The position numbers and the translations under genes are program-made. 35,013 bases of DNA from a virus. Taxonomy: Duplodnaviria; Heunggongvirae; Uroviricota; Caudoviricetes. The stretch's first letter is position 1; every line of letters starts with the position of its first letter. Of this stretch, positions 1 through 3,727 are shown piece by piece. The notes under the pieces were generated by a model that saw nothing but the letters and a program-made list of their open reading frames with translations, did not search any database and had not been told where the DNA came from. The stretch lies in IMG/VR virus record IMGVR_UViG_2534681831_000020, positions 1-35,013 of that record; one strand, 5' to 3'.

Positions 1-2120
1 GTCATCATGGACAGCACCGAACGGGTGAATCCCCGCCAGTCTGCCTCTGCACCGGTCAGCATCGCCGCCATATTCTGTGCAATACCGTCAAAGGTCTGCG
101 TGGCAGCACTTTTAACCTGCGAAAAACTGTCCGTCGCACTTTCCGCCCACTCGCCCCAGCCGGACTTCAGCCCGGCCATCCAGCTTCCACGAAGCTGCTC
201 CTCCGCAGACCAGGTGTTCTTCAGTGCCGATGTGGCCTTCGCCAGCGCAGCCGGATTATCACCGTACACGTCCCGAAGACGCTGCGCTTCAGACTCCCGC
301 TGCGCCTGACGGTCAGTGAGACCGCGGGCTTTTGCGCTGATGGCGGCCTGCTTCGCGCTCTGCTGCTCTTCAAACCGCACCGCCTGCTGTGCCAGCTCAT
401 TCAGGCGTTTCTGGTATTCAACCTTGTCGCCCAGCTCAGCCAGCTGGCGTTTGTACTCCAGCGTCTCGTCTTTATGCGCCAGCAGGGATTTTTCCTGCTC
501 AGATAACTGTCGTTTCGTGGCAGCCTCTTTCAGGACCGCATACTGACTTTCCGCCTTCCATAAATCACGGCGCTGCCGGCTGATTTTCTCATTCGCACCG
601 CTGTGTTTTTTCCAGCGTCCTGAGCTCAGCTTCAAGGGCAAGCAGAGCCTCTCTTGCCTGCTCCTCTTCCCTCTCCCCGGCAGAGCGCGTTTTTCGGTGA
701 TGTATGCTTTTTTACCTGTCAGCTCTTCAGCCAGACGGCTGACGGCTTCCTGCTGCCCCGGACCTTTGCTGACGCCTGTTGCACGCGAACGGTTGATGTA
801 CCCCATTTCCCCCTGGCGTATACGCGCATCCCGTTCCGCAATGGATTTTCTCAGCGCCAGTTCATCACGTTTTGTTTTCTCAATAAATACGCGGTTCTCT
901 TCTGCCAGTTCACCAAACAACGCACCAACGCCGGGCACATTCTTTGTCGTTTCCCAGGCTGACTGAATAAATTCAGCCAGCGCCAGATCCCCCTGCACAA
1001 GCAGCAGCTTCACCTGTTCAACGGTTCCTGCCACCACGTCAGTGATCAGACTGAGTGCCCCCAGTGTATGATCACCTATCCATGCCCATGCGTCAGAAGT
1101 CCAGGTTTTAACATCGTCCCAGATTTTTTCCACCGGCGTGGCCGCTTTATCAAGTTGCTCCAGACGTGCATTCATGACATCCGCAAACAGGGACATCGCC
1201 TCCGTCACCGCAGCCTGTTTACCTTTCGTGCGCTCAAGCTCATCAATATGGCGTAACTGGGAAACGCTCAGGAAGTTATACTGCTGATTCAGGGAGGCCA
1301 GCGCCTTCACCGGATCTGCTGCAATCCCTTCAAAGGCTTTTTCCACCTTCCCGGCATCGTCCCCCACCGTCTGCAGCCATCTCTGAGAGGTTTCCCCCAT
1401 GATCCGTAGCTGCCCGGCGGTATATTTCCCGCTTTCTGCCAGACGGGCCAGATTTTCTGCCGCCTGTCTGATACCACCACCGGCTTCATCGCTGATCACC
1501 CCGGCCATTTTCCACAATTCTGCCGTTGTGGTGGCAGCCGCCCCTCCGGTCAGGATCAGTGAACGCAATAAGGCCCGATCAGCCTGCTCTGCCTGCCAGG
1601 CGGCGGCAGCAAGCGCGGCCAGTACGGCAACCCCGCCACCTGCCGCCACACGGGCCACCGACATAAATCGTCCCAGCTCACCGGCATTCCGGGCATTTTC
1701 AGCCAGTGCATTTGCCGTATCTGACAGCGACTCCTCTGATGATTCAGAGGCATCCCTGATCCCGAGAAGTTCCTCCTTCAGCAGGGTAAGCAGGCTGAGC
1801 GGTCCACCGAATGAATCGCTGATCTGCCCCCCCTGCTGCAGCATGATAAGGAAGGGATTCTGACCACCGGCAAGCTGAGTGACAATATCCGTGAACTGTG
1901 CGGGCAGTGTGCGCATGGCAGCCTTATACTGTCCGACTGATATCCCGGCTTTTTGTGCCGCCAGCGCCTGTCGGCTCAGCCCCTGTTCAACAGTACTGGC
2001 GGTTTTTCTGGCATCCGCCTCCAGACTGGAAAAATGACGGCGTACCCGGGCCATCTGTTCATCAAACCGGGCCGCATCCAGACTCAAATCAATAACCAGA
2101 TCACCCGCTGGCTGGGACAT
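1..2120 (-). CDS. H: tail tape measure protein (lambda H-like), partial; 3' end runs off the window start
   Basis: Minus-strand translation from ATG at 2120 gives MSQPAGDLVIDLSLDAARFDEQMARVRRHF...AQKAGISVGQYKAAMRTLPAQFTDIVTQLAGG, matching my recollection of the lambda H N-terminus; no in-frame stop before position 1; sits downstream of G/T as in lambda. Confidence 0.85.
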   Translation of the reverse strand, partial: MSQPAGDLVIDLSLDAARFDEQMARVRRHFSSLEADARKTASTVEQGLSRQALAAQKAGISVGQYKAAMRTLPAQFTDIVTQLAGGQNPFLIMLQQGGQISDSFGGPLSLLTLLKEELLGIRDASESSEESLSDTANALAENARNAGELGRFMSVARVAAGGGVAVLAALAAAAWQAEQADRALLRSLILTGGAAATTTAELWKMAGVISDEAGGGIRQAAENLARLAESGKYTAGQLRIMGETSQRWLQTVGDDAGKVEKAFEGIAADPVKALASLNQQYNFLSVSQLRHIDELERTKGKQAAVTEAMSLFADVMNARLEQLDKAATPVEKIWDDVKTWTSDAWAWIGDHTLGALSLITDVVAGTVEQVKLLLVQGDLALAEFIQSAWETTKNVPGVGALFGELAEENRVFIEKTKRDELALRKSIAERDARIRQGEMGYINRSRATGVSKGPGQQEAVSRLAEELTGKKAYITEKRALPGRGKRSRQERLCLPLKLSSGRWKKHSGANEKISRQRRDLWKAESQYAVLKEAATKRQLSEQEKSLLAHKDETLEYKRQLAELGDKVEYQKRLNELAQQAVRFEEQQSAKQAAISAKARGLTDRQAQRESEAQRLRDVYGDNPAALAKATSALKNTWSAEEQLRGSWMAGLKSGWGEWAESATDSFSQVKSAATQTFDGIAQNMAAMLTGAEADWRGFTRSVLSMM

Positions 2121-2963
2121 ATCTCACACCTCCGGAAATCCCCGCTGAAGCCATCATTAATGCAACATCATCCTCGCTGACATCCACCACATCCGCAGAA
2201 GGTGAAATATCGCGCCCTCCGTCCCCTCCGAACCGGACGCCTCCGGCAACTCCTGTCGCTTTCTGCATCAGCATTTCTTCCTCGTCCGGCATCTCCGTCT
2301 GCTCTTCCTCACACGCTGGAGCAAGCAGACTGAAATCCGCCGGATGCATATCCGGATCGCCAAAAAACAGGCTGAGTACGGCGTACATCAGCCCGGAAAA
2401 ATGAGCGTCCAGTTGGGTATCCTGAAAATAATGCGTGCAGTAAAAACGTCGCCAGTCGGCATATTCGGTGGATGTCATCCCGGCAAGCATGGCGCGCCAG
2501 TCGGGTCTCCCCATCTCTCGCGCCAGTTTCAGGACAAAGTTCAGCTCGCCTTCGAATGCTTTTTTGATGTTACCGGCTCAGTCGCTTCTGCTTTCCCGGT
2601 TTGTTCAGGATCGGCATCGTGCCGGTTATCCAGCATACCTGAAAGATAAAGCACCCGGTTCGTTGCCTGATTCAGTGCATCAGCAGGCCATCCCAGCATC
2701 ACTTCACGGCGGATCTGCTGCATCTCTGTCTCCGGAGAGGCCAGAGTGCCTTTGAGGGAATGGGAATGCCATAGCGACATCGCCACAAGCAGGGATGCCG
2801 TTTCCAGATATCGCTGGTTAATGTGCACGACATCATGCTTCGTTGTCTCCTGTTGTTCTGCGTCTGAAACAAACTTTATATAATCAAACCGCTGCAGCGC
2901 AGACAATTCGGAAAGCGTGACGGACACACCGTTATATTCAAATTGTTCTGTTTTCAGAAACAT
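2101..2963 (-). CDS. tail assembly chaperone G-T fusion made by programmed -1 ribosomal frameshift (G frame 2963..2559, T frame 2565..2101)
   Basis: T-frame ORF (2101..2514 in track) is open upstream to 2577 and reads ...KKAFEGELNFVLKLAREMGRPDW, overlapping the G 3' end; a slippery heptamer lies 6 codons before the G stop; same layout as lambda G/GT. Confidence 0.7.
2541..2963 (-). CDS. G: tail assembly chaperone G
   Basis: 140 aa, MFLKTEQFEYNGVSVTLSELSALQR..., lambda G-like in sequence, size and position between V and H. Confidence 0.85.
   Translation of the reverse strand: MFLKTEQFEYNGVSVTLSELSALQRFDYIKFVSDAEQQETTKHDVVHINQRYLETASLLVAMSLWHSHSLKGTLASPETEMQQIRREVMLGWPADALNQATNRVLYLSGMLDNRHDADPEQTGKAEATEPVTSKKHSKAS
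2559..2565 (-). other. slippery heptamer A-AAA-AAG for the G to G-T -1 frameshift
   Basis: Minus strand reads TCA AAA AAG in the G frame; shifting -1 gives AAA AAA GCA in the T frame, which is the only place between the T-frame stop at 2578..2580 and the G stop where the two frames can be joined. Confidence 0.6.
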
Positions 2964-2976
2964 GTATTACCTCCGT

Positions 2977-3727
2977 TTACCCTGCAGCGCCCGCTTCAGT
3001 AACGGTGACTTCAGCCACTGCGGCGAACTGACCATTTCCGCTCACCACAGGGATCTGCACCTTACCTGTCGCCACGCCGTTTACCGTAATTGTCATATCT
3101 TTCACACTAATGGTGGCTTTCGACGGATCGGCGGAAACCGCTCTGAACGTCTTGTCGGTTGCACTTTCCGGCTCAAAAGAAACCGTCAGGGTGGTTGTTT
3201 CCCTTTTGCCACCGTACCGGATGTCGGCGTCACCTTAATCGCAGTGACCGGCGTAATTTTGCTGCGTTCTTCCGCTACAGAAGGTTTGCCCACGTTGGTC
3301 ACTTTCACCGTGCGGGTGATCACTTCTTTCGCCGTCACGGCCTTACCGATACTGCTGACCCAGCCACGGAACACATCCACCGTGCCATTTGGGAAACGGA
3401 TTTTATAGGCCCGCACATCCCCGCTTTCAAACCAGCCTATAAGCCCTTTCTGACCTTCTTCTCCCGGTTTCCAGGCCAGCGTAAACTGGTATCTCCTGCA
3501 GACTTCTGCCCCTGCCCGGTCGCGGTCCAGTCCGCGTCTTCATCATCCAGGTAGTTATCATCGTAGGGTTCTGCCGTCATCTCGCCCGGCGTCAGATCCT
3601 TCACCTTAGCCAGTCGCTGCCAGTCATCGTCTGACAACGGGTTTGCATAAGCATCACCCTTGCCGTTGTAAACCCACAGAGTGGTACCGGCACCTTTTAC
3701 CGGCTCAAGGGGATTTGGTGTTGCCAT
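2977..3727 (-). CDS. V: major tail protein (lambda V-like), reading frame broken twice by single-base differences at homopolymers (near 3483..3485 and 3198..3207)
   Basis: Three consecutive minus-strand frames give [36 protein letters not shown]...SAGDTS / ...[42 protein letters not shown]...VAKG / ...[24 protein letters not shown]...[23 protein letters not shown], together collinear with lambda V. Confidence 0.8.

What the first reader, a model, noticed from the sequence alone, without database searches (positions are those of the whole stretch)
2541..2600. G to G-T frameshift uses an A-AAA-AAG slippery site, not the lambda G-GGA-AAG
Frame analysis places the only possible join between the G frame and the T frame at minus-strand TCA-AAA-AAG (2567..2559), six codons before the G stop. 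A GGGAAAG heptamer 30 nt upstream (2591..2597) is aligned GGG-AAA-G in the zero frame and lies upstream of a T-frame stop, so it cannot be the shift site. The site here is the dnaX-type heptamer in the conserved position.
Basis: partly seen in the sequence, partly recalled or inferred. Interest (0 to 1): 0.45.

Follow-up and report, generated by a model that had tools for sequence, protein, structure and literature searches.

The report
Lambda-type tail chaperone G-T frameshift site
This is the well-known ribosomal frameshift that lambda-like phages use to make a small amount of a fused tail-assembly protein; this prophage lineage uses the slippery sequence A-AAA-AAG in place of lambda's G-GGA-AAG, at exactly the same spot, which is an ordinary variant.

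Summary
On the minus strand, gene G (2963..2541, 140 aa, Pfam Phage_TAC_2) overlaps a -1 frame that is open only from 2577 and runs to 2101 (Pfam Phage_tail_T). The 34-nt overlap holds one in-phase X_XXY_YYZ heptamer, A_AAA_AAG at 2565..2559. The upstream GGGAAAG (2597..2591) is phased GGG_AAA_G and lies before the T-frame stop at 2580..2578.

In about 70 near-identical loci the heptamer is AAAAAAG, 15 nt before the G stop. In three lambda-type clades (44-49% G identity) GGGAAAG sits at the same distance. Both G parts are 135 residues up to the shift-site Lys. T-frame codons between the shift site and the annotated T ATG (2514) evolve as coding sequence, and that ATG has no Shine-Dalgarno.

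The mechanism is therefore the lambda G/GT -1 frameshift with a different heptamer. Published E. coli reporter data give the two heptamers near-equal efficiency, so the swap looks functionally neutral. A_AAA_AAG tail-chaperone frameshifts are already catalogued and measured (6-7%) in the unrelated HK97-type family.

The locus matches EHEC prophages (Sakai Sp11, 99.8%). Databases annotate G and T separately and never as the 287-aa fusion. This is an annotation gap, not new biology. Interest is low.

The parts
2541..2963 (-). Gene G, tail assembly chaperone: 140 aa, zero frame. Start ATG 2963 with a strong SD (GGAGGT); stop TGA 2543..2541.
   Evidence: ORF and translation. Pfam PF06894 Phage_TAC_2, E = 6.5e-35. 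RefSeq annotates it as 'phage tail assembly chaperone G', WP_000479045.1 / ECs_2168. SD duplex -10.9 kcal/mol.
2559..2565 (-). Slippery heptamer A_AAA_AAG. Zero-frame codons are AAA (2564..2562) and AAG (2561..2559); the predicted site of tandem -1 slippage of two tRNA-Lys.
   Evidence: Phase checked. It is the only in-phase X_XXY_YYZ in the overlap, and it sits 15 nt before the G stop, as does GGGAAAG in lambda-type loci.
2544..2577 (-). Overlap where both the G frame and the T (-1) frame are open: 34 nt, bounded by the T-frame stop TGA 2580..2578 and the G stop 2543..2541.
   Evidence: Stop-codon map of the three frames; overlap length 34 nt in all loci of the clade.
2101..2559 (-). T portion of the predicted G-T fusion. 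The first -1-frame codon is GCA, starting at 2559, and the stop is TGA 2103..2101: 152 aa after the shift. The predicted fusion is 135 + 152 = 287 aa.
   Evidence: Translation. Pfam PF06223 Phage_tail_T at fusion residues 164-236, E = 3.3e-11. The T part is 68% identical to lambda T. Coding-type substitution pattern upstream of the annotated ATG.
2512..2514 (-). ATG used by database annotations as the start of a separate 137-aa 'T' protein. It is probably an internal Met (LAREMGRPDW) and not a start codon.
   Evidence: Annotated start in RefSeq and GenBank records. No SD (at best -3.0 kcal/mol). Conserved T-frame residues continue upstream of it.
2591..2597 (-). Decoy GGGAAAG, phased GGG_AAA_G and lying 5' of the T-frame stop. 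Not a usable shift site.
   Evidence: Frame arithmetic and stop map. Sakai Sp11 has GGTAAAG here, so it is not conserved.
2482..2550 (-). Predicted two-helix RNA fold 3' of the heptamer. Helix A is GGCGAGC/GCUUGCC, starting 8 nt after the heptamer. Helix B is UGGCGCG/CGCGCCA. A possible stimulator, unproven.
   Evidence: MFE -34.4 kcal/mol, z = -2.6. The same architecture is predicted in lambda and in the L095-type clade, z = -2.7 and -3.5. Across 45 distinct sequences there are only wobble-compatible one-sided changes and no compensatory pairs.

Best explanation
This is the programmed -1 ribosomal frameshift of the lambda-type tail assembly chaperone genes G and T, in a lambdoid EHEC prophage close to Sakai Sp11.

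Most ribosomes translate G (140 aa) to its TGA stop. A few percent slip back one base when tRNA-Lys occupies AAA in the P site and AAG in the A site of A_AAA_AAG (2565..2559). Both tRNAs re-pair on AAA AAA. Translation then continues in the T frame and yields a 287-aa G-T fusion that shares G's first 135 residues.

By analogy with lambda, abundant gpG coats the tape-measure protein H. The rare gpGT brings in the major tail protein V through its T domain. Neither protein ends up in the virion.

The heptamer differs from lambda's G_GGA_AAG in the first three bases only, so the junction dipeptide is Lys-Lys rather than Gly-Lys. The swap should leave the G:GT ratio about the same.

Shown here: the anatomy, the family membership, the positional homology and the coding signature of the T frame upstream of its ATG. 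Inferred: that the shift occurs, its rate, and the roles of the two proteins.
For: - Frames, stops and heptamer phase were read directly.
- G is Phage_TAC_2 and the T part is Phage_tail_T. Gene order is V-G-T-H.
- In 70 loci of this G clade the heptamer is AAAAAAG, 15 nt before the G stop. In all sampled lambda-type clades (44-49% G identity) GGGAAAG lies at the same distance.
- An unbiased scan on the conserved 3' segment TTCGANGGNGAGCTGA gave 63 GGGAAAG, 8 AAAAAAG and 1 AGGAAAG.
- The G parts of the window and of lambda are both 135 aa up to the shift Lys, and both G proteins are 140 aa.
- In the 15 T-frame codons between the shift site and ATG 2514, 7 of 11 variable columns are at codon position 3 and none at position 1. 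Replacements are conservative: A/V, E/D, N/S, V/A, K/R.
- ATG 2514 has no SD, while G's start has a strong one.
- Published reporter values in E. coli (no stimulator / IS911 stimulators / IS3 pseudoknot): AAAAAAG 0.29 / 4.3 / 39%; GGGAAAG 0.28 / 3.8 / 43% (Sharma et al. 2014, PMC4066793, Table S3).
- A_AAA_AAG tail-chaperone frameshifts are accepted as true in E. coli prophages (ECs1801 cluster, Table S4). Two genes of the tail-chaperone cluster measured 6% and 7% (Antonov et al. 2013, PMC3711429).
- Lambda's shift runs at about 4% and depends on tRNA-Lys U34 modification (PMC3296357).
Against: - There is no direct evidence (protein, ribosome profiling or reporter) for this locus or this G clade.
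- The ECs1801 cluster with published data belongs to a different chaperone family, HK97-type, with a 124-aa protein. Its measured rates transfer only by analogy.
- Bare heptamers give about 0.3% in a neutral context. A lambda-like few percent needs help from the surrounding sequence, and I could not establish that help. The predicted 3' fold has no covariation support.
- In this particular window gene V is interrupted by two 1-nt deletions. If these are real, this copy makes no tail and the frameshift has no consequence here.
Confidence: 0.9

Rival explanations
1. T is made as a separate 137-aa protein. It would start at ATG 2514 either by independent initiation or by re-initiation of ribosomes that have just terminated at the G stop 27 nt upstream. 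This is how every database record annotates it.
For: All GenBank and RefSeq records seen annotate T as a stand-alone CDS from this ATG. The 137-aa protein is on record from about 1000 contigs, and the fusion is not on record at all. The G stop lies close upstream, so re-initiation is physically conceivable.
Against: There is no SD before ATG 2514: the best duplex is -3.0 kcal/mol and abuts the ATG, against -10.9 at normal spacing for G. The 15 codons upstream of the ATG are conserved as protein in the T frame, with third-position variation, across clades whose G tails are unrelated. The same Met is internal in lambda, whose record places the T frame's start at the shift site. From my own knowledge of Levin et al. 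1993, lambda T is made only as the G-T fusion. The annotations are what automatic gene callers produce, since they cannot call a frameshift.
Confidence: 0.05
2. The frame change is made at the RNA or DNA level, not by the ribosome. RNA polymerase would stutter on the A6 run and add one A to a fraction of transcripts. Alternatively the A6 length in this assembly is simply a sequencing error, and G-T is one continuous gene.
For: Homopolymer runs can cause transcriptional slippage (reviewed in PMC5009743 and PMC3711429). This window does show two 1-nt homopolymer discrepancies in the neighbouring V gene.
Against: A6 is found in every relative of the clade that retains the site (69 of 70 loci; L070 has lost it through a 31-nt deletion), and in the E. 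coli complete genomes fetched, so it is not an assembly error. Documented transcriptional slippage uses runs of 8 or more A or T (PMC3711429), and six is short of that. The lambda-type clades have GGGAAAG at the same place, with no long homopolymer, yet the same gene layout. That layout points to a ribosomal heptamer mechanism.
Confidence: 0.03
3. The locus is a decaying remnant. The heptamer is a fossil in a defective prophage, and no G-T product matters any more.
For: In the window, V is broken by two 1-nt deletions not seen in any of 5,426 complete E. coli genomes. The tape-measure gene of the 100%-identical G-T locus in strain E2865 is flagged as frameshifted. One relative, L070, has lost the shift site through a 31-nt deletion.
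Against: G, the heptamer and T are intact and under purifying selection across hundreds of genomes and in Stx1a-converting phage genome records. The V lesions are private to this sequence and both sit in homopolymers, which suggests sequencing error. This rival concerns the state of one copy, not what the element is.
Confidence: 0.1

Closest known systems
Bacteriophage lambda G / G-T programmed -1 frameshift (Levin, Hendrix and Casjens 1993; Xu, Hendrix and Duda 2004, 2013, 2014)
   Same: The protein families are the same (Phage_TAC_2 and Phage_tail_T). So are the gene order V-G-T-H, the G length (140 aa), the 135 residues before the shift and the 15 nt from the heptamer to the G stop. The 3' sequence and the T N-terminus (F-D/E-G-E-L...LAREMGRPDWRAMLAGM) are conserved, and the A-site codon AAG is read by tRNA-Lys.
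   Different: The first three bases of the heptamer are AAA, not GGG. The P-site tRNA is therefore tRNA-Lys, not tRNA-Gly, and the junction dipeptide is Lys-Lys, not Gly-Lys. The G protein is only 44% identical and its C-terminal tail is unrelated in sequence.
HK97-type tail assembly chaperone frameshift of E. coli prophages (ECs1801 cluster 'A_AAA_AAG_25' of Sharma et al. 2014; tail-chaperone cluster of Antonov et al. 2013)
   Same: The heptamer A_AAA_AAG, the biological role (chaperone gene between the major tail and tape-measure genes), the host and the prophage setting are the same. Its frameshift is accepted as true, and the cluster measured 6-7%.
   Different: It is an unrelated chaperone family: 124 aa, relatives in HK75, HK633 and mEp390. 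Its heptamer abuts the stop codon (AGA AAA AAG TAG), whereas here it lies five codons before the stop.
E. coli dnaX gamma/tau frameshift signal
   Same: The heptamer A_AAA_AAG is identical, with tandem slippage of tRNA-Lys (PMC4344849 and PMC3711429).
   Different: dnaX has an SD-like stimulator upstream and a hairpin close downstream. It shifts at about 50% and yields a shorter product. Here there is no upstream SD-like element, only an unproven predicted fold downstream, and a longer fusion expected at a few percent.

Membership tests
Lambda-type G/G-T tail assembly chaperone frameshift | Upstream gene encodes a lambda gpG-family chaperone (Pfam PF06894) | tested here: met
   E = 6.5e-35, residues 1-123 of 140 match profile positions 1-123 of 126; 44% identical to lambda G over the full length.
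Lambda-type G/G-T tail assembly chaperone frameshift | Downstream -1-frame ORF encodes the T domain (Pfam PF06223) | tested here: met
   E = 3.3e-11 on the fusion translation; the T part is 68% identical to lambda T.
Lambda-type G/G-T tail assembly chaperone frameshift | The gene pair lies between the major tail gene and the tape-measure gene | tested here: met
   Order V-G-T-H in the matching annotated records: VT1-Sakai, PhiR12_2_star, E2865 and Sakai Sp11. The window is collinear with them.
Lambda-type G/G-T tail assembly chaperone frameshift | The T frame is -1 relative to G and overlaps G's 3' end, with an in-phase X_XXY_YYZ heptamer inside the overlap | tested here: met
   34-nt overlap at 2577..2544; A_AAA_AAG at 2565..2559 is the only such heptamer.
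Lambda-type G/G-T tail assembly chaperone frameshift | The shift site is positionally homologous to lambda's | tested here: met
   The heptamer ends 15 nt before the G stop in every clade; there are 135 residues before the shift in both proteins.
Lambda-type G/G-T tail assembly chaperone frameshift | T is not translated on its own: the T frame is coding upstream of its first ATG and has no ribosome-binding site | tested here: met
   Coding-type substitution pattern in the 15 codons upstream of the ATG; no SD. This is sequence evidence only.
Lambda-type G/G-T tail assembly chaperone frameshift | A G-T fusion protein is actually made, at a few percent of G, and both proteins are needed for tail assembly | not testable with these tools
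   This needs a reporter assay, mass spectrometry or genetics. It is known for lambda (PMC5009743 and PMC3296357).
Lambda-type G/G-T tail assembly chaperone frameshift | The heptamer is G_GGA_AAG (a feature of lambda itself, not of the family) | tested here: not met
   The heptamer is A_AAA_AAG here. In a sample chosen by the conserved 3' segment: 63 GGGAAAG, 8 AAAAAAG, 1 AGGAAAG.
dnaX-type frameshift signal | A_AAA_AAG heptamer in phase | tested here: met
dnaX-type frameshift signal | SD-like stimulator about 10 nt upstream of the heptamer | tested here: not met
   No AGGA, GGAG or GAGG in the 30 nt upstream; the best anti-SD duplex is -4.1 kcal/mol.
dnaX-type frameshift signal | Stable hairpin a few nucleotides downstream that stimulates the shift | tested here: inconclusive
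   A two-helix fold is predicted to start 8 nt downstream, z = -2.6 to -3.5. It has no compensatory changes, and the region is constrained as protein-coding sequence.
dnaX-type frameshift signal | The shift produces a truncated product at high efficiency | tested here: not met
   The -1 frame runs a further 152 codons, so the product is a longer fusion.

The most novel reading that the evidence does not exclude
The most novel reading has two parts.

First, the stretch 3' of the heptamer is 87-93% identical in nucleotides across G clades whose upstream 30 nt are only 33-53% identical. It may be conserved not only as the T N-terminus but also as a shared two-helix RNA stimulator. Helix A starts 7-8 nt after the heptamer. 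Such a stimulator would raise either heptamer from about 0.3% to the few percent needed.

Second, the shift site may double as a recombination joint. That would let diverged G modules, each with its own heptamer, be swapped onto a common T module.
Probability: 0.12. Interest if true: 0.35.

Novelty: new member of a known kind. Interest (0 to 1): 0.15.

Why it matters
The practical value is in annotation. This G-T pair occurs in hundreds of complete E. coli genomes, many of them EHEC, and in Stx1a-converting phages. Everywhere it is annotated as two separate genes with a probably false start for T, and the 287-aa fusion is absent from a 15-billion-protein collection.

It also offers a natural comparison of two slippery heptamers in otherwise homologous contexts. 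That comparison could be used to ask two questions: whether the G:GT ratio is held constant, and whether a shift site read by two tRNA-Lys is more sensitive to host tRNA-Lys thiolation than lambda's. Neither question would surprise a specialist.

Tried and rejected
- I looked for prior description of this exact clade. Xu et al. 2004 (Mol Cell) and Xu et al. 2013 (JMB) are not held, so I could not check whether their tables list an EHEC lambda-type G with A_AAA_AAG.
- I first took the 'A_AAA_AAG_25 / ECs1801 tail assembly chaperone' cluster of Sharma et al. 2014 to be this gene. Fetching ECs1801 showed a different, HK97-type chaperone. I dropped the claim that this exact site is catalogued.
- A genome-contig scan with G found only one distant locus, in E. 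albertii, and added nothing.
- I tested a dnaX-like upstream SD; none is present.
- I tested a downstream structure. A fold is predicted in three clades, but a longer 181-nt context gives z = -0.7. The 45 distinct sequences show no compensatory pairs. I do not claim a stimulator.
- I considered the GGGAAAG at 2597..2591 as the real site. It is rejected on phase, on the intervening T-frame stop, and because Sakai Sp11 has GGTAAAG there.
- The supplements of Antonov et al. 2013 held nothing on which tail-chaperone genes were assayed.

Full report
**What is in the sequence.** On the minus strand an ORF runs from ATG 2963 to TGA 2543..2541 and encodes 140 aa. It matches Pfam PF06894, the lambda tail assembly chaperone gpG, at E = 6.5e-35. 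The frame one base back (-1) has its last stop at 2580..2578 (TGA) and is then open to TGA 2103..2101. Translating G through the proposed shift into that frame gives a second Pfam match, PF06223 'Minor tail protein T'.

The two frames are both open only over 2577..2544, a stretch of 34 nt. That stretch contains a single in-phase X_XXY_YYZ heptamer, A_AAA_AAG at 2565..2559. The GGGAAAG at 2597..2591 begins on codon position 1, so it reads GGG_AAA_G, and it lies upstream of the T-frame stop. AAAAAAG as a bare word is frequent in this window (18 against 7.3 expected). The evidence is the phase and position, not the word.

**Where the window comes from.** The G-T segment is 100% identical to E. 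coli E2865 and an O111:H8 strain. It is 99.8% identical to prophage Sp11 of O157:H7 Sakai (genes ECs_2168 and ECs_2167), and 99.8-99.9% identical to ten Stx1a-converting phage genomes. Gene order in the annotated relatives is Z-U-V-G-T-H.

All records annotate T as a separate CDS starting at the ATG that corresponds to window 2514. None joins it to G. An exact look-up finds G and the 137-aa T on about 1000 contigs each. The 287-aa fusion is not present among about 15 billion proteins.

**Comparative test of the shift site.** I fetched 80 IMG/VR loci with G, plus annotated loci, and located in each the G stop, the -1-frame opening and any in-phase heptamers.
- In about 70 loci of this G clade (88-100% G identity) the only heptamer is AAAAAAG, ending 15 nt before the G stop.
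- In the lambda-type clades (44-49% identity to this G), lambda itself included, it is GGGAAAG, also ending 15 nt before the stop.

To avoid choosing loci by G similarity, I also scanned IMG/VR for the conserved 3' segment TTCGANGGNGAGCTGA. Among the true G-T hits the heptamer two bases upstream was GGGAAAG 63 times, AAAAAAG 8 times and AGGAAAG once. The window's G and lambda's G both have 135 residues up to and including the shift-site Lys, and both total 140 aa. So the A6G heptamer is a base-for-base replacement of lambda's site in one G lineage.

**Is T translated from its own ATG?** Three lines of evidence argue against it.
- Across 45 distinct sequences, the 15 T-frame codons between the shift site and ATG 2514 vary as coding sequence does. 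Seven of 11 variable columns are third positions and none are first positions. Variation is synonymous at Gly, Leu and Arg, and the replacements are conservative.
- The residues (A/V)F(E/D)GEL(N/S)F(V/A)LKLARE precede the Met in every clade.
- ATG 2514 has no Shine-Dalgarno: the best anti-SD duplex is -3.0 kcal/mol and abuts the ATG. G's ATG has GGAGGT at normal spacing, -10.9 kcal/mol.

Independent initiation or re-initiation is therefore unlikely, though only protein data can exclude it.

**Mechanism.** The best explanation is tandem -1 slippage. tRNA-Lys on AAA (P site) and tRNA-Lys on AAG (A site) re-pair on AAA AAA. Translation then continues with GCA TTC GAA GGC GAG CTG..., giving a 287-aa fusion. 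This step is inferred by homology with lambda. There the shift runs at about 4%, sets a G:GT ratio of about 30:1, and responds to tRNA-Lys U34 thiolation (PMC5009743; PMC3296357).

Published E. coli reporter values for the two heptamers are almost equal (Sharma et al. 2014, Table S3):

| Heptamer | No stimulator | IS911 stimulators | IS3 pseudoknot |
|---|---|---|---|
| AAAAAAG | 0.29% | 4.3% | 39% |
| GGGAAAG | 0.28% | 3.8% | 43% |

The replacement is therefore expected to be nearly neutral for the ratio. The same paper notes that 3' context can raise such motifs about 12-fold, to about 3.7%.

**Stimulators.**
- Upstream there is no SD-like element, so 'dnaX-type' applies to the heptamer only.
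- Downstream, the 89 nt after the heptamer fold into two helices. Helix A is GGCGAGC/GCUUGCC, starting 8 nt after the heptamer. Helix B is UGGCGCG/CGCGCCA. The z-score is -2.6.
- Lambda and a third clade give the same architecture, with z = -2.7 and -3.5.
- Across 45 distinct sequences the helices show only one-sided changes, all wobble-compatible apart from a single G-A mismatch in helix B in one sequence, and no compensatory pair.
- The region is strongly constrained as protein, and a longer 181-nt context has z = -0.7.

I treat this fold as a candidate only.

**What is already known.**
- The G-T frameshift is a textbook case, conserved across long-tailed phages (PMC5009743).
- A_AAA_AAG tail-chaperone frameshifts in E. 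coli prophages are already catalogued. Cluster A_AAA_AAG_25 (ECs1801, 53 genes) is marked 'true', alongside G_GGA_AAG_4 (gpG) (Sharma et al. 2014, Table S4).
- That cluster is equated with a GeneTack programmed-frameshift cluster. Two genes of the tail-chaperone cluster were measured at 6% and 7% (Antonov et al. 2013).
- I checked ECs1801. It is a 124-aa HK97-type chaperone in prophage Sp9, with AGA AAA AAG TAG at its end. It is not a lambda-G homologue.

The specific statement 'a lambda-G-family lineage uses A_AAA_AAG' did not turn up in the literature I could reach. The key survey, Xu et al. 2004, is not held. I therefore class this as a new member of a known kind, and it may well be already known.

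**State of this copy.** Relative to Sakai Sp11 and E2865, the window's V gene lacks one T (T3 at 3485..3483, not T4) and one A (A3 at 3200..3198, not A4). This splits V into ORFs of 96, 76 and 42 aa. The best match among 5,426 complete E. coli genomes differs from the window by exactly these two gaps. They are either private mutations or homopolymer sequencing errors. The A6 run, however, has the same length in every relative of the clade that retains the site (69 of 70 loci; L070 has lost it through a 31-nt deletion).

**Verdict.** The element is an ordinary lambda-type G/G-T frameshift site with a known, equally efficient alternative heptamer. Its main value is in correcting annotation.

Noticed in passing
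window 3483..3485 and 3198..3200 (minus-strand gene V, 3727..2977): Two 1-nt homopolymer deletions (T3 for T4, A3 for A4) relative to Sakai Sp11, E2865 and the best matches among 5,426 complete E. coli genomes. They break the major tail gene V into ORFs of 96, 76 and 42 aa. They are either private inactivating mutations or homopolymer sequencing errors.
   Followed up: partly
window 2566..2595 versus 2458..2558 (minus strand), compared with lambda (L086) and L095: There is a sharp conservation boundary exactly at the heptamer. The 30 nt upstream are 33-53% identical between G clades and the 100 nt downstream are 87-93% identical. The shift site coincides with a junction between a variable G module and a conserved T N-terminus, possibly a recombination joint.
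   Followed up: partly
window 2482..2550 (minus strand); lambda L086:517-605: A two-helix RNA fold is predicted to start 7-8 nt 3' of the heptamer in all three clades tested (z = -2.6 to -3.5). It is preserved by wobble-compatible one-sided changes only and has no compensatory pairs.
   Followed up: partly
L070 (IMGVR_UViG_2869970738_000006), about 1893..1895: One relative has a 31-nt deletion that removes the heptamer and the G stop and fuses G to the wrong (+1) frame. It appears to be a defective copy.
   Followed up: partly
L141 (IMGVR_UViG_2703718809_000019), 2 nt upstream of 2139: A lambda-type locus has AGGAAAG, not GGGAAAG (GCA GGA AAG). P-site re-pairing is lost and only the A_AAG tetramer remains. 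It could be an intermediate form or a weakened site.
   Followed up: no
L003 (E. coli E2865, NZ_AP018808.1) 2051..3281: In the strain whose G-T segment is 100% identical to the window, RefSeq flags the tape-measure gene H as a frameshifted pseudogene. The window has one extra G there and matches Sakai instead.
   Followed up: no
window 23773..24024 (minus strand): A cluster of three tRNA genes: Arg (tct), Arg (tcg) and Met (cat anticodon).
   Followed up: no
window 2101..2514 (minus strand), in all public annotations: T is annotated everywhere as a stand-alone 137-aa protein (WP_000533440.1, ECs_2167). The 287-aa G-T fusion is absent from a 15-billion-protein collection. This is a systematic annotation gap for the whole prophage lineage.
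   Followed up: yes
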